A stretch of DNA of 18,578 bases from a virus. Taxonomy: Duplodnaviria > Heunggongvirae > Uroviricota > Caudoviricetes. Shown here one piece after another: positions 2,776 to 18,578 of this stretch. Numbering within the stretch: position 1 is the stretch's first letter; each line of letters begins with the position of its first letter. Below the pieces are notes generated by a model. That model was given only the letters and a program-made list of their open reading frames with translations. It was not told the DNA's origin and did not search any database. The position numbers and the translations under genes are program-made. The stretch lies in IMG/VR virus record IMGVR_UViG_2778261535_000010; one strand, given 5' to 3'.

Positions 2776-3248
2776 GCCAGCTTGAAAGCCTGACGACATT
2801 TATTACGGAAAATCTGCCGCCTGATGCCATGCAGATGTTTTCCAGTGTGATGGAAGATTGCGGGCTGACACGCAACGCCAAAGCGATGGGAAACAACCAG
2901 CGCCGGATCGGGGTGCTGACTTACACCGGTCGTTTGTCATGGGATGATTTCCCCTACCGCAAGTATTCGCCGGGGCTGATTTATGCGCTGGTGCTGGCCT
3001 GGGTGGATGAGTTCGCCAACGAGCTGCGCGACGAGCTGAGGCTGGATGATCCAAAAGTGGACCCGGAGTTCGACGACGAAGGGGCATGCATTCTGGATGT
3101 GGTCATCCCGCTGGTTGATCCGCTGGTTTTGCGTGAAGCGGAAAACGGCCCGATCCCCTACAAAGGCAAGCGCTGGGAAATCGTGGACCCCGAAATCTGG
3201 GAGGCGTCGCAACTGGAATTTATTGTCCAGCGTGGTGACGCGTCGTGA
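2772..3248 (+). CDS. tail completion protein (P2 gpR-like)
   Basis: 158 aa; start overlaps the gpL stop (ATGA). The motif TYTGRLSWDDF...LIYALVLAWVDE resembles the P2 gpR pattern (TDFTG...PVLAWL) as I recall it; size is close to P2 gpR (155 aa). Confidence 0.5.
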   Translation: MSQLESLTTFITENLPPDAMQMFSSVMEDCGLTRNAKAMGNNQRRIGVLTYTGRLSWDDFPYRKYSPGLIYALVLAWVDEFANELRDELRLDDPKVDPEFDDEGACILDVVIPLVDPLVLREAENGPIPYKGKRWEIVDPEIWEASQLEFIVQRGDAS

Positions 3249-3940
3249 TCCGGGGGGAGCTGAACCAACAACAGCTAAAGCAGATGCGGGAAACGCTGGC
3301 AAAAGCTGACCTTCCCCCGCGTAAGCGCCAGCGCCTTTTATGGCGTATTGCAAAGCTGGGCATTGTCGCAGCGGCAAAACGTCACCAGCGCCAGCAGGCG
3401 GCCCCGGGCGGTACGCCGTGGGAGCCGCGCAAGCGTGGCAAAGGGAAGATGTTAAAAGGGCTGCCCAAGCTGTTGGCCGTGCGCGAAATGCCAGAGATTC
3501 AGGGGGTAAGAATTTACCTCAAGGGCGGGAACTACCGGAACGGGACGAAGCCGATCGCGGCGGGCCTGGTCGGTGCGGTCCAGCAGGACGGCGCACGGAT
3601 CCAGATGAAAGCCAGTAACGCCCCGCGCAAGCCGCAGGCTGACCAGCCAGCGCTACCGCGACAGGCCAAGCGTCTGCGGGCACTGGGCTACAAAACCCGC
3701 AAGGGCAAGCGCTGGGTTAAGCCGTCCAGCAGGCAAATCATGGAAACCATGAGCATGGCCCAGGCGGGATTACTGATTCGAAAACTGAAAGGCACACCAT
3801 CAAAACGCACATGGACTATTGATATTCCTGGTCGCGTTTTTCTGGGGGTGAGCAACGACGAATTTAACCAAATTATTGCGCGGCAAATGCAGGCAATCGG
3901 CTTCGGCTGGGACGTCAACGCGCAGCAAATCAGGGGGTAA
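3245..3940 (+). CDS. virion morphogenesis / tail completion protein (gpS-like)
   Basis: 231 aa; GTG start overlapping the previous stop (GTGA). Lys/Arg-rich central region. The nearest ATG alternative is at 3284. Confidence 0.45.
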   Translation: MIRGELNQQQLKQMRETLAKADLPPRKRQRLLWRIAKLGIVAAAKRHQRQQAAPGGTPWEPRKRGKGKMLKGLPKLLAVREMPEIQGVRIYLKGGNYRNGTKPIAAGLVGAVQQDGARIQMKASNAPRKPQADQPALPRQAKRLRALGYKTRKGKRWVKPSSRQIMETMSMAQAGLLIRKLKGTPSKRTWTIDIPGRVFLGVSNDEFNQIIARQMQAIGFGWDVNAQQIRG

Positions 3941-5088: not shown

Positions 5089-5544
5089 ATGACTGAACGT
5101 ATCAGCGGTGGATCGTTCGATGTGAACTACGACAGCATCATGATTCACGTCGAAAACGCCACCGTCACCATTACGGATAACAGCGCCGTTGCGCAGTCGC
5201 GTGGCATCCCGAACGGCCACACGAAAGGGGCAGTTTCGGCGGATGTGGAAGTCGAAGTCGACTCCCAGAACTTTAAAAAGTTTACCGCCGTGGCCCGTGC
5301 CGCAGGTTCCTGGCGATCCATTCCGGCAAAGGACTTTTTGTTCTACGCCAACGCCGGGGACGACGAAGAAAAAATCGAGGTGTTTGGCTGCGTTCCGACG
5401 CTGTCCGACATCGTCAACATCAACCCCAACGAGGCCAGCAAAACCACGAAGAAAATTAAATTCATGGTGACAAGCCCGGACTTTGTCGCGATTGACGGCG
5501 TGCCGTACCTGTCAGCCCGCGACACTCGCGATTTGAAAGGCTGA
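5089..5544 (+). CDS. tail tube protein (putative)
   Basis: 151 aa; starts 4 nt after the sheath stop. Size and position are typical for a tube protein. Confidence 0.5.
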   Translation: MTERISGGSFDVNYDSIMIHVENATVTITDNSAVAQSRGIPNGHTKGAVSADVEVEVDSQNFKKFTAVARAAGSWRSIPAKDFLFYANAGDDEEKIEVFGCVPTLSDIVNINPNEASKTTKKIKFMVTSPDFVAIDGVPYLSARDTRDLKG

Positions 5545-5548
5545 CACG

Positions 5549-5860
5549 ATGATGAACGGAGAAACGTCACTGCTTGAAAAGCTGTTGCTTATCGGGGCCG
5601 TGATTGGCCTGGGGCAACTGATGGTCAGCAATGAGCGAATCACAACCCGCCTGCTGGTCGGGCGGATGATTCTGGGATCTGCGGTCGCACCGCTGGCCGC
5701 AATCCCGCTGCTGAAATTCCCCGATATGCCGGAACTGGTCGTCATTGGGCTGGCCTGCGCCCTGGGCATTCTGGGAAGCGCGTTTATTGAGGCCGGGTTA
5801 AAGCGCTGCCTGGATATGTATATCAAGCGATGGGGGAGCAAGCGCAATGAAACTGAGTGA
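5549..5860 (+). CDS. holin (class I-like, three predicted TM segments)
   Basis: 103 aa; tandem Met-Met start. Three hydrophobic stretches (LLEKLLLIGAVIGLGQLMV, LLVGRMILGSAVAPLAAIPLL, LVVIGLACALGILGSAFIEAGL) and a charged C-terminus (KRCLDMYIKRWGSKRNETE). Lies immediately upstream of the endolysin. Confidence 0.6.
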   Translation: MMNGETSLLEKLLLIGAVIGLGQLMVSNERITTRLLVGRMILGSAVAPLAAIPLLKFPDMPELVVIGLACALGILGSAFIEAGLKRCLDMYIKRWGSKRNETE

Positions 5861-6185
5861 AAAACAGCAACTTTTCACGGTGATGATCGCCAACCTGATT
5901 CATTTTGCCGAAGAAAAGGGTTATCGCCTGACGTTTGGCGAAGCGTACCGCACGCCGGAACAGGCCGCGCTTAACGCAAAAAAAGGGAGCGGCATTACTA
6001 ACAGCCTGCATACCCAGCGCCTGGCGGTGGATTTTAACCTGTTTATTAACGGCGATTACCAGACCGACAGCGCCGCATATCGCCCACTGGGCGAATACTG
6101 GGAATCTATCGGCGGATCGTGGGGTGGCCGTTTCAGTAAGCCGGACGGGAACCATTTCAGTCTTGAGCATAACGGGGTTCGCTGA
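5847..6185 (+). CDS. endolysin, L-alanyl-D-glutamate peptidase (peptidase M15 family)
   Basis: 112 aa; GGGGGAG RBS. Contains SLHTQRLAVDF (His-x6-Asp) and a C-terminal DGNHFSLEH His, the zinc-ligand pattern of T5-type M15 endolysins. Start overlaps the holin 3' end. Confidence 0.75.
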   Translation: MKLSEKQQLFTVMIANLIHFAEEKGYRLTFGEAYRTPEQAALNAKKGSGITNSLHTQRLAVDFNLFINGDYQTDSAAYRPLGEYWESIGGSWGGRFSKPDGNHFSLEHNGVR

Positions 6186-6568
6186 TGCGCAATTTGCTGG
6201 GTCTTTTGCTGATTCTGGTCGCTGCAATGTCAGCGGGCTGGCAGGCGCATGACTGGCACGACGCAAAGCTGCAACTCGCTGCCAGTGAAGCGGCAGAACA
6301 AACACGCCAGATTGTCGTTGAAGTGACGCAACAGTCTGGCGAAGCGCTGGAAGCAAAACTCGCGGGGCTAAAAGCCAATGAAAGGCACACGGAACGGGTT
6401 ATTCGCACAGAAATCATTAAGCCGGTTTTTAGCAACGTTTGCGCTTCTGATGATTACGTCCGGTTGTTCAACGAAAGTGCAGATCAAGCCGAACGAGAAT
6501 TATCAGGAAAACCAGCTGACACTTTGCCCGGTCACGCTGCCACGTCTGGCCGGACCGACCGGAAATGA
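6185..6568 (+). CDS. i-spanin (Rz-like)
   Basis: 127 aa; ATG overlaps the endolysin stop (TGATG). N-terminal TM segment LLGLLLILVAAM followed by a charged, probably coiled-coil, periplasmic region. Confidence 0.65.
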   Translation: MRNLLGLLLILVAAMSAGWQAHDWHDAKLQLAASEAAEQTRQIVVEVTQQSGEALEAKLAGLKANERHTERVIRTEIIKPVFSNVCASDDYVRLFNESADQAERELSGKPADTLPGHAATSGRTDRK

Positions 6569-6674
6569 CTTTGACGCGGCGCTGACAGCCTACCGGCAGA
6601 TGTATACCGACTGCGCCGCCCGACATAACGCCCTGGTGGGCATCATTCGACAACGTAAGGAATTAGCACAATGA
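6378..6674 (+). CDS. o-spanin (Rz1-like lipoprotein), +1 frame overlapping Rz
   Basis: Starts inside Rz in another frame and extends past the Rz stop. Signal peptide with a lipobox-like FALLMITSGC. The true start codon is uncertain. Confidence 0.55.
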   Translation: MKGTRNGLFAQKSLSRFLATFALLMITSGCSTKVQIKPNENYQENQLTLCPVTLPRLAGPTGNDFDAALTAYRQMYTDCAARHNALVGIIRQRKELAQ

Positions 6675-6940
6675 GTAAACCGAAAAAAATCGCCATGACC
6701 GTGGCGGGCGTAAATCTGAGCTTTGAGCCGAATAAAACCGCGTTTAACAACCTGCTTAACGAAATGACCATGACCAATAAGGTTGCCCCTATGGTGACGT
6801 ATCTGGGCCGCATTGTTGATGCCGAGTGTAAAGAGTCGCTCAACAAGCTGATGGAAGATTATCCGGGTTGCGAAATGCAGATCGTCGAGAAGGTTAACGA
6901 GATTTACTCCCCCAAACTTGAGATCGAAGTAAAAAACTGA
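6671..6940 (+). CDS. tail assembly chaperone (gpE-like), zero-frame product
   Basis: 89 aa; lies directly upstream of the tape measure gene; ends in the slippery heptamer A_AAA_AAC followed by TGA. Confidence 0.65.
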   Translation: MSKPKKIAMTVAGVNLSFEPNKTAFNNLLNEMTMTNKVAPMVTYLGRIVDAECKESLNKLMEDYPGCEMQIVEKVNEIYSPKLEIEVKN

Positions 6941-7128
6941 CGGCGCGGGTGGCGGCCATTCGCAAGAATGCGCTTGAGCAATACCTTGCCCTGCGCCGCT
7001 ACTACCTCCCGCACGAAGCCGACGACGAAGAAAGCATCGCCCGCGCCCTGTGGCTGGACGAGTATTTTGCCCAGACCCGCGCCAGCAAGACGGCGGAAGG
7101 GATAGCCATCGCATTTAACGGAAACTGA
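6671..7128 (+). CDS. tail assembly chaperone, -1 frameshift fusion product (E+E'-like)
   Basis: Slippery A_AAA_AAC at 6931-6937 in the zero frame. The -1 frame is open from 6937 to the TGA at 7126-7128 (63 extra codons, LTARVAAIRKNALEQYLALRR...IAFNGN) and has no start codon of its own. It ends 1 nt before the tape measure ATG. Confidence 0.6.
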
Positions 7129-7129
7129 T

Positions 7130-9244
7130 ATGAGCCACCTGGATTTTACCCTGAGCCTGATCGATAAGCTGACGCGGCCATTAAAAACGGCCCAGTCTTC
7201 GCTGTCTGGCTTTGCTGAAAAATCGCAGGCATCTTTTACAAAAATCGGGATCGGTGCGGCGGCTGTCTGGGGCGTGGCGCAGTCCATCGCGGGCGTGGTG
7301 GGTCCGGCATATGAGATGAACGCCGCACTTGCAGAAGTGGGTTCCAAAGGCGTGGCAGAGGACGCGCTGAAGCGTCTGTCCGGCGAAGCTATGCGATTCA
7401 GTATGCGCTACGGCAAAGGGGCCGTTGATGTGGTCCGGTCAAGCTACGCGATGAAAGGTGCAATGGCGGGCCTGTCCGATCTGGACCTGCCCCGCGTCAC
7501 CATCGCGGCCAATACCCTTGCGGCAGGCGTCAAGGCCAGCGGCGAAGAGGCAGGCGAATACATCGGCGCGATGGCGTCACGTTTCAACGCGGAGTTGTCC
7601 AGTCTGGGCCATGTGCGTTTTGCCGAAGAGCTGGCAGGGAAAACCGCGTACATGGTGCAAAACTTCGGCGTGAAAATGCAGACCATGCAGGAGCTTATCG
7701 AGGGGACGAAAAGTGCCGGTGCTGACTTTGGCGTCAGCCTGGATGAACAGTTCGCCGTCCTGGGTACGCTTTCGCGCACGCTGGGTACTGAGGCCAGCGG
7801 GATCTACGAGCAGTTTTTACGCAGCGCCCCGGCTGCCGCTGAAAAGCTGGGTATGAGCTTTGTCGATGCCACCGGAAAAATGCTGCCGATGGGCGACATT
7901 CTGCAAAAACTCCAGAGTAAATACGGGCAGAGCATTGAAGGGAACGTCAAGGCACAACAGGCGCTGGACGCCGCGTTCGGTGGCGGTGCTGACGTTATCA
8001 AAAAGCTGTACGGCCAGCAGGATAAATTAAATCGCAGTATCACCGAGCTGGGCCGAAACGACGGGATGAAACGCGCCCAGGAAATGGCCGCACGAATGGC
8101 CGAGCCGTGGGAGCGTATCAAAGCGACATTCTTTGCCATTCGCGTGGCGATTGGTAACAGGCTGATCCCTATTCTGTCACCGCTGATGAACCGTATTGCC
8201 GACGTGGGGACAAAATTTGCCCGCTGGCTGGATATGTTCCCGAATATTGCCCGCTGGCTGGGTTACATCACCCTGGGCGTGCTGTCCTTCGGGCTGGCCG
8301 GGGCGGCGGTCAATATCGTGATGGGGGTCTTTGGCTTCACCATGATGGGGCTGGCCGCAATCGCAAAAGTGCTGGGCGGTGCATGGAAACTCCTGTTATG
8401 GACGCTCAACCTGTTGCGTCCGTCCCTGCTGACGACGCGCATCGGTCTGGCCGCATTATGGATCCAGTCAAAATTGCTGGCGTTGTGGACGGGCGTCTGT
8501 CGCATCGCGCTTGCTGCATGGAATATCGCGTTAAAGGCCGGGGCCATTGCCATGCGGGTTTACGGTGCGGCGACCATGTTTGCCGGGGCTGCAATGCAAT
8601 TCCTGATGAGTCCGATCACCCTGATTATTGCCGGACTGGCGCTTCTGGCTGTGGGGGTCTGGTATGTCGTCACCCACTGGGAAGAACTGGCGGCAGCGAT
8701 CATGGATACGGCGGCTTTTGCCTGGGTGATGTCAGTCGCTGAACAGGTGGGACAGGTGTTTGCGCAGGTCTGGCAATCCATTACTGACGGCTGGGCCGTG
8801 GTGGTTGATTTCTTTGCCGGTCTTTCCCCGCTCGCCACCTTTGAAGGGTTCGCACAGACCATCGGCGGGGTATTCAGCAAACTTTTCGACGTCCTCAAAA
8901 ATACCTTTGCATCTACCTATAACTGGATTGTTGAGAAGTTAAACAAGATCCCCGGCGTCAACATCGACCTGAAAACCGTTTCGCCACCGGCAGCGGCTGC
9001 CGTTCCGGCAAACGCGGTCGTTCCTGACAGTGCTGCAGGTTCGTCGAAGCTGAACAGCCCGTCCGTGCTGACGGGGAACCGAATTAATGCAGACATCCCA
9101 CGCGGCGGCCTGATGAGTCAGGTTAAAACCGACAGCAAAACCGCTGTGGATAACCGTAAATCGTGGGGCGACACCTACATCAACGCCCCCAATGGAATCA
9201 CCCCGGCCCAGCTGGCTGAATGGCAGGAGCTTAACGCAGGATGA
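7130..9244 (+). CDS. tail tape measure protein
   Basis: 704 aa; follows the frameshifted chaperone; Ala/Gly-rich with a long central hydrophobic, helix-rich block (NIARWLGYITLGVLSFGLAGAAVNIVMGVFGF...). Confidence 0.85.
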   Translation: MSHLDFTLSLIDKLTRPLKTAQSSLSGFAEKSQASFTKIGIGAAAVWGVAQSIAGVVGPAYEMNAALAEVGSKGVAEDALKRLSGEAMRFSMRYGKGAVDVVRSSYAMKGAMAGLSDLDLPRVTIAANTLAAGVKASGEEAGEYIGAMASRFNAELSSLGHVRFAEELAGKTAYMVQNFGVKMQTMQELIEGTKSAGADFGVSLDEQFAVLGTLSRTLGTEASGIYEQFLRSAPAAAEKLGMSFVDATGKMLPMGDILQKLQSKYGQSIEGNVKAQQALDAAFGGGADVIKKLYGQQDKLNRSITELGRNDGMKRAQEMAARMAEPWERIKATFFAIRVAIGNRLIPILSPLMNRIADVGTKFARWLDMFPNIARWLGYITLGVLSFGLAGAAVNIVMGVFGFTMMGLAAIAKVLGGAWKLLLWTLNLLRPSLLTTRIGLAALWIQSKLLALWTGVCRIALAAWNIALKAGAIAMRVYGAATMFAGAAMQFLMSPITLIIAGLALLAVGVWYVVTHWEELAAAIMDTAAFAWVMSVAEQVGQVFAQVWQSITDGWAVVVDFFAGLSPLATFEGFAQTIGGVFSKLFDVLKNTFASTYNWIVEKLNKIPGVNIDLKTVSPPAAAAVPANAVVPDSAAGSSKLNSPSVLTGNRINADIPRGGLMSQVKTDSKTAVDNRKSWGDTYINAPNGITPAQLAEWQELNAG

Positions 9245-9576: not shown

Positions 9577-10753
9577 GAAACCCGACATTGATTTTGAAAA
9601 AGTGCTGAATGACAGCGGGATGCCCGCGACAGAGGCCGAAATTACGGCGGCATTTAAAGCCACCGTGCAGGCGGAAGGGTTCGTCACAAATACGTCGAGA
9701 ATGTCACCTTTCTGGCGGCTGATTTCGAAGATTGTCACCACGCCGGTGTTATGGCTGCGGGCGGCGCTGATCGATGTGGTTCTGCGCAATATGTTTGTCG
9801 CGACGGCCACCGGTCCAATGTTGCGCCTGCTGGCCTGGGCGGTCCATATCGTGCCTAAACCCGCCAGCGCTGCCGCTGGCGTGCTGCGGTTCTACAAGCT
9901 GAACGCGGCGGATGTGGTCGTCGTGCCAGCCGGAACACTGGTGCAAACCGAGCGTATTAACGGCGTGGTTTACGTGCTGGCCGTGAATGAAGACGTGACG
10001 CTGCCTGCCGGGGTTGAAAGCGGGCTGGTTCCCGTCACGGCGACCGGCACCGGTAGCGGCTATAACCTTGCGCCCGGCTATTACCGGATCTTACCTGTTG
10101 CGGTGGCCGGGATTGCCAGCGCGGTAAACGAGGACGAATGGCTGATTACGCCAGGGGCTAACGAGGAAAGCGACGACGAGCTGCGCGACCGGACCCGCAA
10201 CCAGTTTAATCTGGTAGGTAATTACCACTCTGACGCTATTTACCGCAGCATGATTGCCAGCGTGCTGGGCCTGAGCGTTGATCGCATTTACTTTTTGCAC
10301 GATGCCCCGCGTGGGCCGGGTACGGCAAATGCTTACCTGTTGCTGGACAGTGGCGAAATATCACAGCCCTATATTGATGCGGTTAACGACTATGTGAATA
10401 CCCAGGGCCACCACGGACACGGTGATGATCTGCAGTGTTATGCCATGCCGGAAACCAGCCACACCCTGGCGGTGACGGTCTACGTCAAAAGCGTGGAAAA
10501 CATGGAAGCGGAAGACCTGAACGCGTTAAAAACCGGTATTACTGACCTGATTCGTTGCGCGTTTCGCGAGAACGCCAATTACGACGTTAAAAAGACGCAG
10601 CCCTATTCGCGCTATTCCTTTTCGAATCTGGGCCGCGAGATCCACAAGGCTTTTCCGGTTGTCGATTCACTGCATTTTTCACTGACGGATATTGTCAGCG
10701 AACTGTCGGTCCCGCGCCTGTCAGGGTTAACGGTGGAGGTTGAAAATGACTGA
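9569..10753 (+). CDS. baseplate J-like protein (gpJ/gp47/gp6 family)
   Basis: ATG at 9569 with GAGG 7 nt upstream (the track ORF begins at 9518 without an RBS). About 394 aa. Position between the wedge and gpI-like genes matches P2 W-J-I order. Confidence 0.7.
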   Translation: MTEKPDIDFEKVLNDSGMPATEAEITAAFKATVQAEGFVTNTSRMSPFWRLISKIVTTPVLWLRAALIDVVLRNMFVATATGPMLRLLAWAVHIVPKPASAAAGVLRFYKLNAADVVVVPAGTLVQTERINGVVYVLAVNEDVTLPAGVESGLVPVTATGTGSGYNLAPGYYRILPVAVAGIASAVNEDEWLITPGANEESDDELRDRTRNQFNLVGNYHSDAIYRSMIASVLGLSVDRIYFLHDAPRGPGTANAYLLLDSGEISQPYIDAVNDYVNTQGHHGHGDDLQCYAMPETSHTLAVTVYVKSVENMEAEDLNALKTGITDLIRCAFRENANYDVKKTQPYSRYSFSNLGREIHKAFPVVDSLHFSLTDIVSELSVPRLSGLTVEVEND

Positions 10754-11339
10754 GTTTTCAACCTTGCTTGCCGGTCTGAAATTGCCGTCGTGGCTGAACA
10801 AAGGCGACCCCGCCAGGCTGTTGCGTGGCTGCGTGAAATTCTGGTCGCAGGTGTACGGGTGGATTACCTGGCCGTTAAAGCAGTTTGACCCACTGGTCTG
10901 CCCCGAACCGCTGTTAAACCTGATTGCCTGGGAACGCGACATCGTTCGGTTTAAGGGGGAGCCGCTCGACATTTTCCGCAAACGGGTGAGTTACGCATTT
11001 ATCAATGCGCAGCAGGCCGGAGAGGTGGCGGGCTTTATTGCCATTTTTGAGCGACTGGGGATTGGTTACGTTGAATTACTGGAGCGGCAGGACGGACTCG
11101 ACTGGGATGTGATTGTCGTTCGGGTGACAAACAGTCAGATTGCGGAAAATGGCGATCTCCTGCTGGAAATTATCCGTAAATATGGGCGTACATGCCGCCG
11201 TTACCAATTTGAAGTGATCACAGCCCTGCCACTGAATATCAATATCGGCTGGTATCAGGGGGAATATATTTGCTGGCCTGCCACCCTGAGTGATGTGAAT
11301 AACCAGCCCCAAATAACATACAGCGCAAGTTTGAAGTAG
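10746..11339 (+). CDS. tail protein I-like (baseplate, gpI family)
   Basis: ATG at 10746 with GGAGGT RBS; overlaps the J-like stop by 8 nt. About 197 aa, immediately upstream of the tail fiber. Confidence 0.55.
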   Translation: MTEFSTLLAGLKLPSWLNKGDPARLLRGCVKFWSQVYGWITWPLKQFDPLVCPEPLLNLIAWERDIVRFKGEPLDIFRKRVSYAFINAQQAGEVAGFIAIFERLGIGYVELLERQDGLDWDVIVVRVTNSQIAENGDLLLEIIRKYGRTCRRYQFEVITALPLNINIGWYQGEYICWPATLSDVNNQPQITYSASLK

Positions 11340-13049: not shown

Positions 13050-13448
13050 ATGTTTGAGAATGCAACGATTGATAACCCTCGAACCACAAATATCAATATT
13101 TATATTGATGTGGATATTCACCTGAATGATCAATCAATTACTTTTACTTCGATGCCTGACGACTCCGAAATATATAGTGTTGAGATTTATAAACGCGCTT
13201 TAAATGGCGAGTTTGGAAAAATTATAACTATTGAAAATGATGTTTTTTCGGCAAACAAACTACAAAAAGACATGTTGCAATCAAGGGCGGCTGAATCAAT
13301 TACTGTTCTTGAATATGCGGTTGAATTGAAAATGGCAACGGAAAAGGAAATGCAACTACTCAATGAATGGAAAAAATATGTAGTTTTATTAAGCCGCGTT
13401 AATTTAACAAACCCTAAATGGCCGGAGGTTCCGGGCGATGTGGCGTGA
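13050..13448 (+). CDS. tail fiber assembly protein (Tfa/gpG-like chaperone)
   Basis: 133 aa; GGAGG RBS with ATG at 13050. C-terminal NPKWPEVP motif typical of Tfa proteins. Markedly AT-rich compared with neighbouring genes. Confidence 0.7.
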   Translation: MFENATIDNPRTTNINIYIDVDIHLNDQSITFTSMPDDSEIYSVEIYKRALNGEFGKIITIENDVFSANKLQKDMLQSRAAESITVLEYAVELKMATEKEMQLLNEWKKYVVLLSRVNLTNPKWPEVPGDVA

Positions 13449-14160
13449 ATCGGTTGTAAAGATTGCTGATGATATGGGGGCGCTGGCCTGTTCCATTGTC
13501 CCCGCGCATCCCTGGGTTTACGGTCTGGGACAGAACACGGATTCAGGCGGTTATCTTAGCCCGGCCAATGCGATGGGATATCTTGCTAAAAAGCTGTTAT
13601 CCGGTGTCGGTAGCGGTGACGTCATCGTCATGATGGTGGCGGAGAATACCCACGACGCTTTTATGCAGGGACTGAATAAACTGTCCACCGTATTTCCGGC
13701 CCCGGTATTTACGCAGGTAAGCCGCATGGCCGCAGCCGCCGCAGAACTCAGCACGGTAAAAATGCAGTTGCCGGTTAAAGCCGACGTATTGCCAGCCAGT
13801 GCGCCGTTATCTGTCTCAACCAACCGGCTGGCGCTGAATGCCCAGCGGGTTGCCGCCGCTCAGCTGGCCGCCTCAGTCAGTACCACCACAACAGATCTAA
13901 AAAATCAGGTTACGGGCTTTATTCAGGAACGGGCCGGTTTGCTGGCCTCACTCAGCCAGGGACTGGACGATCTGAAAGCCGCCAGTGCGAATATTTTTTC
14001 ATTCAGTTACAGCGGGAGTTATGCCGTTGCAGCCGCTGAATTGCTGAAAGGCATCCCGCAAACAACGGCAGTGCATACCGCCGCGATGATGTTTATCGGG
14101 GATTCGTTATCTGACTTAGAGAAGATGCTACATGAGCCAGACCGCATTACTCGCGCTTGA
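13438..14160 (+). CDS. hypothetical phage protein (unassigned, Ala-rich)
   Basis: 240 aa; GGAGG RBS 9 nt upstream of ATG 13438; overlaps the Tfa stop. Phage-like G+C. No motif I can assign. Confidence 0.4.
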   Translation: MWRESVVKIADDMGALACSIVPAHPWVYGLGQNTDSGGYLSPANAMGYLAKKLLSGVGSGDVIVMMVAENTHDAFMQGLNKLSTVFPAPVFTQVSRMAAAAAELSTVKMQLPVKADVLPASAPLSVSTNRLALNAQRVAAAQLAASVSTTTTDLKNQVTGFIQERAGLLASLSQGLDDLKAASANIFSFSYSGSYAVAAAELLKGIPQTTAVHTAAMMFIGDSLSDLEKMLHEPDRITRA

Positions 14161-14681: not shown

Positions 14682-16406
14682 ATGAAACCAATTAAACGCC
14701 TGTACCTTTCCTCTGATCCGGTCCATCTGATTGACTGCAATATCGTGCTGGAGCTGAACGCGTGCGGTCGGGGGTTTATTACGGCGGGGACCGAGACAGA
14801 TTACACCGGTAAAATAGTGCGTATCGATGTTGGTTATGATGGTCTGGTCCTGCGCTGGTTTACCGGGTATGTCGAGCGGTCACAGCCTGCTGATAATGGA
14901 ACATGCCGGTTGTTCGTGCGTGAGCTGGTAGGCATCTTTGATAAATTGTGGCCGTGTTCTTTCCAGCATCCAACGCTGCGCCAGATTACTGACTGGATAA
15001 GTGAGCAAAGCGGGCTGGCCGTCACAACGCCGGTCGGCGCTGCTTATGCAGATAAACCGATCCCCCACTTTACGCACAGCGGCACGGGCTATCAGCTTCT
15101 TGCCATTCTGGGCCGCGCATTTTCAGTGACGGATTATCTCTGGTATCAGCTGCCGGACGGGGATGTCTTCGTCGGCGCTGCGGATCACAGTCTTTTTGCG
15201 GGTAAACCAGTGGAGATCCCGCACGAATTTAGTCAGGCATCGGCAGGCGGTAATTCAATGGTTGTGCCGATGATTCAGAGCCTGCGCCCCGGCGTTGACG
15301 TCAACGGCCATCGGCTAAACCAGGTCCGGCTAAATAACGACGATATGGCAATCACCTGGCAGCCACGCAGCAAAGCCAACGGCCAGCCATTGCAAAAATC
15401 ACCGATTCAGCGGCAGATTGAAAACGCATTCCCGGAGCTGGCAAGCGGCCTGCATCTTCCAAAGTTCGCCAGAGTGGAAGCACCAAGCGAGGATGTATCA
15501 GGGGGGAATATTGCCGATCCATTCCGCCCGCGCTATGCCGTGGATCTCCAGCTGCTTGACGAAGACGGCAAGCCAGCCGCAAATACGCCGGTTTATTCTG
15601 CCGTTCCGCTACCTGTACCAATGGCGGGGAGCGAGTCGGGAATGTTCCAGTTTCCGCCCCCTGGCACGCTGGTTGAAGTCGGGTTCACGGAGGGGCGGCA
15701 GGATAAGCCCTTTGTGCGCCAGATTATGGCGGAGGGGCATAACCTGCCAGCGGTTAAACCCGGCGAGCAATTGCAGCAACAGCGCGATGGTGTATCGCAG
15801 CGCGTGACGGTTGCCGGAGACTGGGAACGCCAGACGGACCAGACAATTCGCGAAAACTCCATGACTCGCGAAGTCACCACCGACGAAGAGATCCGCAAAG
15901 TGGTTGTCCGTGAAACTACGGTCCAGGCAACAGATAAAACAACCGTGCTGGGCACGGCCACACTTCTGGCCGGGGCGGTGGTCCATATCAGCGAGGGTGA
16001 TTACAGTATTGGCACATCCGGCAACCTGACAGTAACCTGCAGCAAGGACAATTCCGTCAGTGTTGGCCGGAACGTGAAACGGGACGTCGCGGGCAATGTT
16101 ACAGACGACGTGAAAGGGAATGTCACGTCAAACGTCAGCGGCGCACTGACTGAAAAAATCAGCGGCATCCGCCGAAGTGTGGCCCAGGCGCAACAGTTGA
16201 TTGCCCCGGTGGTAAAACTGGGAAGCGAAGAGATTAACGTCCTGACACTACTCACTGACACCCTGGACGTGGTGAGGGTGCTGGCAGAGACTGCCGCATC
16301 ACATACTCACCCCAATACGGGGACCAGCGGGCAGGCTGCGCAGTTCACCGCAACGGCCACTAAAACCGGTACATTGAAAAGCAAATACGGCCCCCTGATA
16401 GCCTGA
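14682..16406 (+). CDS. baseplate hub/central spike protein (VgrG-like architecture; gpV-like C-terminus, possibly fused to a gpD-like N-terminus)
   Basis: 574 aa. The C-terminal region has octapeptide V-x-G repeats (DVAGNVTD / DVKGNVTS / NVSGALTE / KISGIRRS) visible as 24-nt periodicity around 16057-16170, and an H-x-H motif (SHTHP, about 16301-16309) like spike apex iron sites. It is the last gene before att, as gpD is in P2. Confidence 0.55.
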   Translation: MKPIKRLYLSSDPVHLIDCNIVLELNACGRGFITAGTETDYTGKIVRIDVGYDGLVLRWFTGYVERSQPADNGTCRLFVRELVGIFDKLWPCSFQHPTLRQITDWISEQSGLAVTTPVGAAYADKPIPHFTHSGTGYQLLAILGRAFSVTDYLWYQLPDGDVFVGAADHSLFAGKPVEIPHEFSQASAGGNSMVVPMIQSLRPGVDVNGHRLNQVRLNNDDMAITWQPRSKANGQPLQKSPIQRQIENAFPELASGLHLPKFARVEAPSEDVSGGNIADPFRPRYAVDLQLLDEDGKPAANTPVYSAVPLPVPMAGSESGMFQFPPPGTLVEVGFTEGRQDKPFVRQIMAEGHNLPAVKPGEQLQQQRDGVSQRVTVAGDWERQTDQTIRENSMTREVTTDEEIRKVVVRETTVQATDKTTVLGTATLLAGAVVHISEGDYSIGTSGNLTVTCSKDNSVSVGRNVKRDVAGNVTDDVKGNVTSNVSGALTEKISGIRRSVAQAQQLIAPVVKLGSEEINVLTLLTDTLDVVRVLAETAASHTHPNTGTSGQAAQFTATATKTGTLKSKYGPLIA

Positions 16407-17216: not shown

Positions 17217-18578
17217 TCACTTACCGTGGGGGTTACGCGTGGTTTCCCCGGAGAAATTACGCATCAGCAGCGCGTAATTTAGCTCAAGATCCTGCGGCAC
17301 CGGGATCCACACAGTATAACCATCGCCTGGTGCGACCGGCATAGCTTCACCTTTGGCGTTTTCCATATGCTCAAGGGTAAAGTTAATGTTGCCTTGCGGC
17401 GTCATCAGCTCAAGGCTGTCGCCAACGGAGAATTTATTTTTCACCGCTACCGCCGCGAGGTCGCCCTTGCGCTCACCGGTAAACTCACCAACAAACTGCT
17501 GGCGGTCAGAAACTGAATAACCGTATTCGTAGTTCTGATAATCGTCGTGAGTATGACGACGCAGGAAACCTTCGGTATAGCCACGATGCGCCAGACCTTC
17601 CAGAGTTTCCAGCAGGCTGGTATCGAATGGTTTGCCCGCAGCGGCATCATCGATAGCTTTACGATAAACCTGTGCGGTGCGTGCGCAATAGTAGAAAGAT
17701 TTGGTACGGCCTTCGATTTTCAGCGAATGCACGCCCATTTTGGTCAGGCGTTCTACATGGGCGATGGCGCGCAGATCTTTCGAGTTCATGATGTAAGTGC
17801 CGTGCTCATCTTCAAACGCGGTCATATACTCGCCCGGACGCTGGGCTTCTTCGATCATAAACACTTTGTCAGTTGGTGCGCCGATACCCAGCGTCGGCTC
17901 AACATTTTGCACCGGAATCGGCTCGTACTTGTGTACGATGTTGCCAACGTCATCTTCTTTCCCTTCCTGGACGTTGTACTCCCAGCGGCAGGCGTTGGTG
18001 CAGGTGCCCTGATTCGGATCGCGCTTGTTGATGTAGCCAGAGAGCAGGCAGCGACCAGAGTAGGCCATACACAGCGCGCCGTGAACGAAGATCTCTACCT
18101 CCATATCCGGCACCTGATTGCGGATCTCTTCAATCTCTTCCAGCGACAGCTCGCGAGAGAGGATCACGCGGGTCAGGCCCATTTGCTGCCAGAATTTCAC
18201 CGTCGCCCAGTTCACGGCGTTAGCCTGTACCGAGAGATGGATCGGCATTTCAGGGAAGTGCTCACGCACCAGCATAATCAGCCCTGGATCGGACATAATC
18301 AGCGCATCCGGCCCCATTTCCACCACCGGTTTCAGGTCACGGATAAAGGTTTTCAGCTTGGCGTTGTGCGGTGCAATGTTGACCACGACATAAAACTTTT
18401 TCCCCAGCGCATGGGCTTCATTAATGCCGAGCTGAAGATTTTCGTGGTTGAATTCGTTGTTGCGCACACGCAGGGAGTAACGCGGCTGGCCCGCATAAAC
18501 AGCATCTGCGCCATAAGCGAAAGCGTAACGCATATTTTTCAGCGTTCCCGCCGGGGAAAGGAGTTCCGGTTTAAACAT
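17217..18578 (-). CDS. yegQ: peptidase U32 family protein YegQ (tRNA hydroxylation protein TrhP)
   Basis: Complete 453-aa ORF; the window ends exactly at its start codon. MFKPELLSPAGTLKNMRYAFAYGADAVYAGQPRYSLRV... matches E. coli YegQ as I recall it. Has the conserved neighbourhood with cyaR. Confidence 0.85.
   Translation of the reverse strand: MFKPELLSPAGTLKNMRYAFAYGADAVYAGQPRYSLRVRNNEFNHENLQLGINEAHALGKKFYVVVNIAPHNAKLKTFIRDLKPVVEMGPDALIMSDPGLIMLVREHFPEMPIHLSVQANAVNWATVKFWQQMGLTRVILSRELSLEEIEEIRNQVPDMEVEIFVHGALCMAYSGRCLLSGYINKRDPNQGTCTNACRWEYNVQEGKEDDVGNIVHKYEPIPVQNVEPTLGIGAPTDKVFMIEEAQRPGEYMTAFEDEHGTYIMNSKDLRAIAHVERLTKMGVHSLKIEGRTKSFYYCARTAQVYRKAIDDAAAGKPFDTSLLETLEGLAHRGYTEGFLRRHTHDDYQNYEYGYSVSDRQQFVGEFTGERKGDLAAVAVKNKFSVGDSLELMTPQGNINFTLEHMENAKGEAMPVAPGDGYTVWIPVPQDLELNYALLMRNFSGETTRNPHGK

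What the first reader, a model, noticed from the sequence alone, without database searches (positions are those of the whole stretch)
6929..7128. Programmed -1 ribosomal frameshift in the tail assembly chaperone at A_AAA_AAC
The chaperone zero frame ends GTA AAA AAC TGA, so the classic X_XXY_YYZ heptamer A_AAA_AAC (6931-6937) sits directly against the stop codon. The -1 frame is open for 63 more codons to 7128, lacks any start codon of its own, and ends 1 nt before the tape measure ATG. This is the arrangement of P2 E/E+E' and lambda G/GT.
Basis: seen in the sequence. Interest (0 to 1): 0.5.

Follow-up and report, generated by a model that had tools for sequence, protein, structure and literature searches.

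The report
Tail chaperone -1 frameshift site
An HP1-like (P2-family) prophage almost certainly makes a longer version of its tail assembly chaperone by a ribosome slipping back one base at A_AAA_AAC; this is a well-known phage trick, but public records of this phage group do not annotate it.

Summary
The chaperone gene (6671-6940, Pfam Phage_TAC_10) ends GTA AAA AAC TGA. The -1 frame runs 63 codons to 7128, and the tape measure ATG is at 7130.

- 154 of 155 related loci keep the exact heptamer directly before the stop codon. This holds down to 33% chaperone identity.
- All 140 distinct sequences use NNA AAA AAC, although Lys and Asn codons elsewhere in these genes vary freely.
- The -1 extension is always 60-64 codons and ends at the tape measure start. 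It shows coding periodicity and matches Pfam DUF6890.
- Amino-acid conservation begins at the first codons after the shift site, and no start codon is conserved.

A marine Vibrio branch uses A_AAA_AAA plus a stop instead. No conserved downstream RNA structure was found.

Corrections:
- There is one GTG in the -1 frame, at 6949.
- The canonical slip predicts the junction ...VKN-LTARV, not VKK-L.
- P2 places its T_TTT_TTG six codons before the stop and shows no sequence similarity to this family.

None of the 17 GenBank or RefSeq records of this group that I inspected joins the two ORFs. The case is an ordinary new member of a known kind. Its one unusual point is that a heptamer inefficient in E. 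coli always abuts a stop codon.

The parts
6671..6940 (+). Zero-frame tail assembly chaperone gene (89 aa plus TGA). It is the short, abundant 'G-like' product.
   Evidence: Full-length match to Pfam PF10963 Phage_TAC_10 (E 4.9e-29) and to phrog_1214. AF2 model has pLDDT 88.9. RefSeq relatives are annotated 'putative tail assembly chaperone'.
6931..6937 (+). Slippery heptamer A_AAA_AAC in X_XXY_YYZ phase.
   Evidence: Present in 154 of 155 related loci. All 140 distinct DNA sequences have NNA AAA AAC, although other conserved Asn columns split between AAT and AAC and Lys uses AAG in 9-22% of cases.
6938..6940 (+). Zero-frame stop codon TGA, flush against the heptamer.
   Evidence: The position is invariant in every locus that has the heptamer, while the codon itself varies (TAA, TGA, TAG). 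The same holds in the A_AAA_AAA branch.
6937..7128 (+). -1 frame extension: 63 codons plus TGA. It is the 'T-like' domain, Pfam DUF6890.
   Evidence: PF21830 E 1.5e-21 and phrog_7050 E 3.1e-24. Open for 60-64 codons in all intact relatives. Codon-position entropy is 0.76/0.55/1.49, the same pattern as the chaperone. Arg4, Ala7, Ile8, Asn11 and Gln15 are conserved with synonymous codon variation.
6671..7128 (+). Span that encodes the predicted 152-aa frameshift fusion (chaperone + DUF6890), with junction ...EIEVKN|LTARV...
   Evidence: Inferred. tblastn of the fusion finds 67 phage records, and every listed one matches in two pieces, as expected when the two halves lie in different reading frames. 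The frame change itself was checked directly in 13 of these phages.
7130..9244 (+). Tail tape measure protein gene (704 aa), the presumed client of the chaperone.
   Evidence: PF10145 and phrog_28. Its start lies within a few bases of the -1 stop in most relatives: a 4-base overlap to a 6-base gap, with outliers from -17 to +34.
6946..6976 (+). Candidate weak hairpin 8 nt 3' of the heptamer (6946-6952 pairing with 6970-6976; 6 pairs here, 3 of them G-U).
   Evidence: 69.8% of cells paired against 64.6% in shuffles and 19-50% in slid controls. RNAalifold finds no consensus structure. Inconclusive.
5089..5544 (+). Tail tube protein gene, the presumed binding partner of the extension. This is by analogy with lambda gpT-gpV and was not tested.
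   Evidence: PF10772 Phage_HP1_Orf24 and phrog_1182. The partner role is inference only.

Best explanation
This is the programmed -1 ribosomal frameshift site of the tail assembly chaperone of an HP1-like Peduoviridae prophage. The closest sequenced phage is Salmonella phage SI7, at 98% identity.

Most ribosomes terminate at TGA 6938-6940 and release the 89-aa chaperone (Phage_TAC_10). A minority slip back one base on A_AAA_AAC: the Lys and Asn tRNAs re-pair from AAA-AAC to AAA-AAA. These ribosomes then read CTG ACG GCG ... in the -1 frame for 63 more codons. The product is a 152-aa fusion whose C-terminal module is the family Pfam calls DUF6890.

By analogy with lambda gpG/gpGT and P2 E/E+E', the short form would coat the tape measure protein. 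The rare long form would use its extra domain to recruit the tail tube protein, which fixes the ratio of the two products.

Shown here:
- the sequence anatomy;
- selection on the heptamer at the nucleotide level;
- protein-coding selection on the -1 frame starting at the shift site;
- the absence of a conserved start codon.

Inferred:
- that slippage happens on the ribosome;
- its efficiency;
- the assembly role of the two products.

The stop codon is always flush against the heptamer and no downstream RNA structure is conserved. Slow decoding of the stop is therefore the most likely modulator of the shift, but this is not tested.
For: - Pfam and PHROG matches for both halves, and gene order sheath, tube, lysis cassette, chaperone, extension, tape measure.
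- 154 of 155 relatives from genomes and viral contigs keep AAAAAAC immediately 5' of the stop.
- 140 of 140 distinct sequences use NNA AAA AAC. The rare codons GTA, ATA and CTA are used there, while synonymous choice is free elsewhere.
- The -1 ORF is 60-64 codons in all intact loci, whereas the +1 frame is open for only 1-40 codons. In most loci the -1 ORF ends between a 4-base overlap and a 6-base gap relative to the tape measure start.
- Third-position variability shows that the -1 frame is the coding frame.
- Conserved residues start at codons 1-4 after the shift. No start codon is conserved: GTG at codon 5 occurs in 17 of 140 sequences, and TTG at codon 19 in 41 of 140.
- Database DUF6890 proteins have arbitrary N-termini, with lengths of 45-63 aa.
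- HP1, K139 and Yersinia phage 324 have the same site. Marine Vibrio, Salinivibrio and Pseudoalteromonas phages have A_AAA_AAA plus a stop at the same position.
- There is no promoter or terminator between the genes.
- A_AAA_AAC is a proven -1 site in IS1 with no established stimulator (PMC4066793).
Against: - No protein-level evidence was available to me for this clade.
- In E. coli reporter assays A_AAA_AAC is one of the poorest heptamers: 0.16% without a stimulator, 0.19% with the IS911 stimulators and 0.74% with the IS3 pseudoknot (PMC4066793 supplement).
- No conserved stimulatory structure was found, and there is no Rfam element.
- In an E. coli HIV-1 slippery-site reporter, replacing the codon 3' of the slippery sequence with a stop lowered frameshifting rather than raising it (Horsfield 1995, as summarised in PMC4373837).
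- The locus searches used peptide patterns that include the terminal KN. This biases towards loci that keep those residues, but it does not constrain codon choice. The pattern-free tblastn of phage records gives the same picture.
Confidence: 0.88

Rival explanations
1. Transcriptional slippage. RNA polymerase adds one extra A in the A6 run, giving a minority mRNA in which chaperone and extension are in frame. The product would have the junction ...VKK-LTARV.
For: A homopolymeric A run lies exactly at the junction. A sister branch has A7. One added A gives the same -1 frame.
Against: - From my own knowledge, productive slippage by bacterial RNA polymerase normally needs runs of about 8-9 or more identical bases.
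- The run is held at exactly six A followed by C in 140 of 140 sequences and never lengthens within that branch. Selection for polymerase slippage would not be expected to give this.
- The strict X_XXY_YYZ phase and the flush stop codon are features of a ribosomal site.
Confidence: 0.06
2. The -1 ORF is an independent small gene (DUF6890), as RefSeq and GenBank annotate it. It would be started at its own start codon (GTG 6949 here) or by re-initiation after termination at 6938-6940.
For: Gene callers annotate stand-alone ORFs of 45-63 aa. A GTG is present at 6949.
Against: - No start codon is conserved: codon 5 is GTG in only 17 of 140 sequences, and is otherwise GTT, GTC or GTA.
- Invariant Arg4 and conserved Leu1 and Thr2 lie upstream of every candidate start, and they show synonymous variation typical of translated sequence.
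- The annotated N-termini differ between near-identical relatives.
- This model gives no reason for the heptamer to be invariant at synonymous sites.
Confidence: 0.04
3. Coincidence. The open -1 frame and the heptamer are accidents of a spacer between two genes, and no extended product is made.
For: In-frame heptamers are common by chance, at 16 in 5343 codons. The heptamer is weak in E. coli assays.
Against: This cannot explain conservation across Enterobacterales, Aeromonas, Pasteurellaceae and Vibrio. It also fails to explain the coding periodicity or the Pfam-level conservation of the extension.
Confidence: 0.02

Closest known systems
Phage lambda G/GT and the conserved tail-assembly-chaperone frameshift of long-tailed dsDNA phages (Levin 1993; Xu, Hendrix & Duda 2004; cited through PMC5009743)
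   Same: - Two overlapping ORFs lie just upstream of the tape measure gene.
[quoted passage not shown]
- The second ORF has no start of its own.
- The shift is expected to be low level, setting a fixed ratio of the two products.
   Different: - Lambda uses G_GGA_AAG, a heptamer that is efficient in E. coli. This family uses A_AAA_AAC, which is inefficient in E. coli assays.
- Here the heptamer always abuts the stop codon.
- The Pfam families differ.
- The phage has a contractile tail, and a lysis cassette sits between the tube gene and the chaperone gene.
Phage P2 E / E+E' (Christie 2002; annotated in NC_001895)
   Same: - Same virus family (Peduoviridae) and same position before the tape measure gene T.
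- Similar sizes: 91 and 142 aa in P2, 89 and 152 aa here.
- Same two-module architecture: a TAC domain plus a conserved C-terminal Pfam module of about 40 aa that lies in the -1-frame part.
   Different: - P2 shifts at T_TTT_TTG, six codons before the E stop.
- P2 has Phage_TAC_7 + Phage_P2_GpE; this family has Phage_TAC_10 + DUF6890.
- hhalign finds no similarity (probability 0.2).
- The P2 frameshift is annotated in the record. In the HP1-like group it is not.
IS1 insA/insAB' frameshift at A_AAA_AAC
   Same: The heptamer is identical. It is a proven -1 site with reduced synonymous variability and no established stimulator (PMC4066793). Its efficiency is low but biologically sufficient.
   Different: The gene products are unrelated (a transposase). 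I could not check whether the stop is flush against the heptamer in IS1.
[quoted passage not shown]
   Same: The codon immediately after the slippery heptamer is the zero-frame stop.
   Different: Those sites are eukaryotic and have strong downstream structures. No such structure is conserved here.

Membership tests
G/GT-type tail assembly chaperone -1 frameshift | Two overlapping ORFs located between the major tail/tube gene and the tape measure gene. | tested here: met
   Tube gene 5089-5544, chaperone 6671-6940, -1 ORF to 7128, tape measure gene 7130-9244. A four-gene lysis cassette (5549-6674) sits between the tube and chaperone genes, as in HP1.
G/GT-type tail assembly chaperone -1 frameshift | The upstream ORF belongs to a tail assembly chaperone family. 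| tested here: met
   PF10963 Phage_TAC_10, residues 7-89 against profile positions 1-82 of 82, E 4.9e-29.
G/GT-type tail assembly chaperone -1 frameshift | A slippery sequence in the correct phase within the overlap, conserved in relatives. | tested here: met
   A_AAA_AAC is present in 154 of 155 loci and in 140 of 140 distinct sequences at synonymous sites. The variant A_AAA_AAA occurs in a sister branch.
G/GT-type tail assembly chaperone -1 frameshift | The downstream frame is protein-coding, conserved, and has no initiation signal of its own. | tested here: met
G/GT-type tail assembly chaperone -1 frameshift | The fusion protein is detected, and both products are required for tail assembly. 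| not testable with these tools
   This needs mass spectrometry, western blotting and genetics. I found no paper on this clade.
P2 E/E+E' homologs (Phage_TAC_7 + Phage_P2_GpE) | Sequence or profile similarity to P2 E and E'. | tested here: not met
   The Pfam families differ. hhalign probability is 0.2.
P2 E/E+E' homologs (Phage_TAC_7 + Phage_P2_GpE) | Shift at T_TTT_TTG a few codons before the E stop. | tested here: not met
   Here the heptamer is A_AAA_AAC, flush against the stop.
Pfam DUF6890 (PF21830) | Match above the gathering score. | tested here: met
   76.3 bits against a cut-off of 23.6, residues 108-151 of the fusion.
Structure-stimulated bacterial -1 PRF (dnaX or IS3 type) | A conserved downstream hairpin or pseudoknot, or an upstream Shine-Dalgarno-like element. 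| tested here: inconclusive
   RNAalifold gives no consensus. The candidate hairpin is only slightly above controls. Third positions downstream vary freely. There is no Rfam hit. The fold of the window itself has z about -2.
Programmed transcriptional slippage | A homopolymer run long enough for RNA polymerase realignment (about 8-9 or more, from my own knowledge). | tested here: not met
   The run is exactly A6 in this branch and A7 in the Vibrio branch.

The most novel reading that the evidence does not exclude
The HP1-like chaperone site may be a distinct, termination-coupled class of bacterial -1 frameshift signal. In this reading, a heptamer that is intrinsically poor in E. coli (A_AAA_AAC, or A_AAA_AAA in the sister branch) is made productive, and tunable by release-factor activity, because the zero-frame stop codon always sits in the A site right after it. 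No RNA structure would be involved. In 112 of 140 sequences the base after the stop is C (derived). From my own knowledge, that is the weakest termination context in E. coli.
Probability: 0.3. Interest if true: 0.5.

Novelty: new member of a known kind. Interest (0 to 1): 0.3.

Why it matters
Mainly for annotation.
- None of the 17 GenBank or RefSeq records of the HP1-like Peduoviridae that I inspected joins the two ORFs, including HP1, K139, SI7, ESSI-2-like phages and phiO18P. They either leave a gap of about 190 nt or call a stand-alone 'DUF6890' or hypothetical protein.
- DUF6890 can be renamed as the frameshift-encoded C-terminal ('T-like') domain of the Phage_TAC_10 chaperone.

A secondary point concerns mechanism. 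The heptamer is invariant yet weak in E. coli, it always lies against a stop codon, and it has no conserved RNA stimulator. This makes it a clean natural system for asking how termination and -1 slippage compete in bacteria.

Tried and rejected
- Downstream stimulatory structure. Folds of the window have z about -2. The MFE stem 6941-6949 / 6989-6998 is not kept in relatives. RNAalifold on 43 diverse sequences gives nothing. A hairpin 8 nt downstream is well formed in the ESSI-2-like subclade but only marginal family-wide.
- Upstream Shine-Dalgarno-like element. Nothing convincing. The only oddity is that codon -4 (Glu) is GAA in 117 of 118 cases.
- Homology to P2 E+E'. None by Pfam or hhalign.
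- PDB sequence search with the family profile. It returned only a spurious designer-PPR match.
- Fold search of the chaperone model. One real neighbour was found: 3fgx, an uncharacterised Geobacillus protein, TM 0.74.
- Natural in-frame fusions of Phage_TAC_10 and DUF6890. None were found in two protein searches. These searches are limited by the word index, so fusions may still exist.
- Structure prediction of the fusion.
- Literature on an HP1-group frameshift. Nothing was found in the searchable library. Christie 2002 and Xu 2004 are not held, so I could not check whether HP1 was already listed there.
- Rfam scan of 6600-7300. No hit.

Full report
**1. The observation**

Reading the window directly:
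- The + strand ORF 6671-6940 encodes 89 aa and ends ...GAA GTA AAA AAC TGA.
- The heptamer A_AAA_AAC lies at 6931-6937 in X_XXY_YYZ phase, and the zero-frame stop is at 6938-6940.
- From base 6937 the -1 frame reads LTARVAAIRKNALEQYLALRRYYLPHEADDEESIARALWLDEYFAQTRASKTAEGIAIAFNGN. That is 63 codons, with the stop at 7126-7128.
- The next gene starts at ATG 7130.
- Upstream, the -1 frame is closed by TGA at 6919, so nothing can enter it from further 5'.
- The only potential start codon in the -1 ORF is GTG 6949. There is no ATG and no TTG.

In-frame heptamers of this form are not rare by chance: there are 16 in the 5343 codons of the window's + strand genes. Significance therefore has to come from comparison with relatives.

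**2. What the genes are**

- The zero-frame product is a full-length Pfam Phage_TAC_10 (E 4.9e-29).
- The -1 extension is a full-length Pfam DUF6890 (E 1.5e-21) and phrog_7050.
- The next gene is the tape measure protein (PF10145, phrog_28).
- Upstream lie the sheath (DUF2586, phrog_907), the tube (Phage_HP1_Orf24), and a holin / M15 endolysin / Rz / Rz1 cassette.
- Further upstream are a P2-family capsid protein, small terminase, head completion protein and tail completion proteins R and S.
- The region is 98.3% identical to Salmonella phage SI7 (Peduoviridae, Irrigatiovirus) and 95% identical to prophages in 18 complete E. coli genomes.

This is an HP1-like member of the P2 family. The tail modules of that group are known to be very distant from P2's own (PMC10612066).

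**3. Comparative test**

I collected 154 related loci from species-representative genomes and IMG/VR contigs, with chaperone identity from 100% down to 33%.

- Heptamer and stop. AAAAAAC sits immediately before the zero-frame stop in 153 loci, while the stop itself varies between TAA, TGA and TAG.
- Exceptions. L074 has an indel inside the chaperone gene but keeps the heptamer and extension. L131, a metagenomic contig, has AAAAATC. L154 keeps the heptamer but is cut off by the end of its contig.
- Extension. In every intact locus the -1 frame is open for 60-64 codons. In most it ends between a 4-base overlap and a 6-base gap relative to the tape measure start, with outliers from -17 to +34. 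The +1 frame is open for only 1-40 codons.
- Synonymous sites. Among 140 distinct DNA sequences the last three codons are always NNA AAA AAC (GTA 98, ATA 27, CTA 13, TTA 2). In the same genes GTA is 16% of Val codons, ATA 7% of Ile and CTA 3% of Leu. Other conserved Asn columns use AAT and AAC roughly equally, and conserved Lys columns use AAG in 9-22% of cases. The heptamer is therefore selected as nucleotides, not only as the residues Lys-Asn.

The locus search patterns included the terminal KN, which biases towards loci that keep those residues. They do not constrain codon choice. The pattern-free tblastn of 50,697 phage records gave 67 hits, and every listed hit matched in two pieces, as expected when the halves lie in different frames. 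All 13 phages I inspected directly show the heptamer-plus-stop arrangement.

**4. The -1 frame is translated, and entered from upstream**

- Mean column entropy at codon positions 1/2/3 is 0.76/0.55/1.49 in the extension. In the chaperone it is 0.78/0.57/1.42.
- Conservation starts at the shift site. Leu1 is invariant. Arg4 is invariant while using CGG, CGA, CGC and CGT. Val5 and Ala7 each use all four codons. Ile8, Asn11, Gln15, Leu19, Arg20 and Pro25 are nearly invariant or invariant.
- No start codon is conserved. Codon 5 is GTG in 17 of 140 sequences, codon 19 is TTG in 41 of 140, and codon 21 is ATG in 4 of 140.
- Stand-alone 'DUF6890' proteins in the databases have lengths of 45, 47, 51, 56, 57, 59 or 63 aa for near-identical sequences. 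This is what arbitrary start calls would give.
- No promoter-like or terminator-like site separates the genes on the + strand.

Independent initiation is thus very unlikely.

**5. Extent of the signal**

- HP1, K139 and Yersinia phage 324 carry A_AAA_AAC plus a stop and a 60-63 codon extension.
- A more distant marine branch carries A_AAA_AAA plus TAG or TAA at the same position, with a 62-63 codon extension. This branch includes Vibrio cyclitrophicus phages, PV94, vB_ValM-yong1, L9-1, Salinivibrio SMHB1 and Pseudoalteromonas PY3.

The position of the site and its contact with the stop codon are older than the exact heptamer.

**6. Stimulators**

- The window's 3' region folds with z about -2, but that fold is not shared by relatives.
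- RNAalifold on 43 sequences that differ by more than 15% finds no consensus.
- One hairpin 8 nt 3' of the heptamer (window 6946-6952 with 6970-6976) is well formed in the ESSI-2-like subclade (CGAGTCC...GGACTCG). Family-wide it reaches 69.8% paired cells, against 64.6% in shuffles and 19-50% in slid registers, with a few double changes. In the window itself it is six pairs, three of them G-U. I call this inconclusive.
- Third positions downstream vary freely.
- No Rfam family matches.

In E. coli reporters A_AAA_AAC gives 0.16% without a stimulator, 0.19% with the IS911 stimulators and 0.74% with the IS3 pseudoknot. A_AAA_AAG gives 0.29%, 4.3% and 39% in the same three constructs (PMC4066793 supplement). 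The same paper notes that IS1 uses A_AAA_AAC productively with no established stimulator.

There are two possibilities. The shift may be very inefficient here, which a chaperone needed in about one copy per many could tolerate; lambda's ratio is about 30:1 (PMC5009743). Alternatively, the flush stop codon contributes. The literature is divided on that. 'Shifty stops' are a classical idea (Weiss 1987, cited). In an E. coli HIV-1 slippery-site reporter, however, a stop at this position lowered shifting and made it sensitive to RF2 (Horsfield 1995, as summarised in PMC4373837).

**7. Product**

A tandem slip after Asn-tRNA has decoded AAC gives ...LEIEVKN-LTARV... (152 aa). The junction peptide therefore discriminates between the mechanisms.

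**8. Comparison with known systems**

The architecture is that of lambda G/GT and P2 E/E+E'. The P2 record annotates the join. P2's site is T_TTT_TTG, six codons before the E stop, and its halves are Phage_TAC_7 and Phage_P2_GpE. A profile of this family shows no similarity to P2 E+E'. The AF2 model of the chaperone (pLDDT 88.9, two strands and four helices) has one real PDB neighbour, the uncharacterised 3fgx (TM 0.74).

So it works like P2 E/E+E' but is not a detectable sequence homolog of it.

None of the 17 records of this group that I inspected carries a joined CDS. I found no paper on the site. I could not read Xu 2004 or Christie 2002, so prior mention of HP1 there cannot be excluded.

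**9. Verdict**

It is a new, or at least unannotated, member of a well-known kind. A specialist would not be surprised by it. The modest point of interest is that a heptamer weak in E. coli is invariant and always touches the stop codon, with no conserved RNA structure.

Noticed in passing
window 5549-6674: A complete lysis cassette sits between the tail tube gene and the chaperone gene, as in HP1 and K139. It comprises a holin (5549-5860), an M15 endolysin (5847-6185), the i-spanin Rz (6185-6568) and an overlapping o-spanin (ORF 6378-6674) with the lipobox-like sequence LLMITSGC. The o-spanin stop overlaps the chaperone start (ATGA at 6671-6674).
   Followed up: partly
L158, L160-L165 (Pseudoalteromonas, Vibrio and Salinivibrio phages): The sister branch uses A_AAA_AAA followed directly by TAG or TAA, instead of A_AAA_AAC. 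The chaperone then ends in KK, and the -1 frame starts with Ile (ATA).
   Followed up: partly
L003, L020, L028, L043, L128, L138 and others (ESSI-2-like subclade), columns 16-46 of alignment A2: A well-formed 7-9 bp hairpin (CGAGTCC N15-17 GGACTCG) starts 8 nt after the heptamer in this subclade only. It may be a lineage-specific stimulator.
   Followed up: partly
window 6926-6928 (codon -4 relative to the stop): The Glu codon just before the heptamer codons is GAA in 117 of 118 sequences that have Glu there. The Glu two codons further upstream uses GAG in 34 of 130 sequences. This may extend the nucleotide-level signal.
   Followed up: no
window 6941 (base after the stop): The base following the stop codon is C in 112 of 140 distinct relatives, because -1 codon 2 is ACN or GCN. 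From my own knowledge, a C after the stop is the weakest termination context in E. coli. The A_AAA_AAA branch has A there instead.
   Followed up: no
L074 (Enterobacter sp. EA-1) and L131 (IMG/VR metagenomic contig): L074 has a frame-breaking indel inside the chaperone gene but keeps the heptamer and extension. L131 is the only locus with a mutated heptamer (AAAAATC). Each could be a decaying prophage or a sequencing error.
   Followed up: partly
window 17217-18578 (- strand): This is a Peptidase_U32 gene (453 aa), which looks like a host gene. The prophage end should therefore lie between about 16.4 and 17.2 kb.
   Followed up: no
window 3403-3409: An in-frame C_CCG_GGC heptamer lies in the gene 3245-3940 and is followed by a 69-codon open -1 frame. 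It is probably chance, since it is one of 16 in-frame heptamers in the window.
   Followed up: no
window 10740-11339, 13438-14160 and 14682-16406: Three sizeable + strand ORFs in the baseplate and tail-fibre region have no Pfam match at E up to 0.001.
   Followed up: no
P0063-P0084 (database DUF6890 proteins): Stand-alone DUF6890 entries have inconsistent N-termini, with lengths from 45 to 63 aa, for near-identical sequences. The Pfam family appears to be built from truncated calls of a frameshift-encoded domain.
   Followed up: partly
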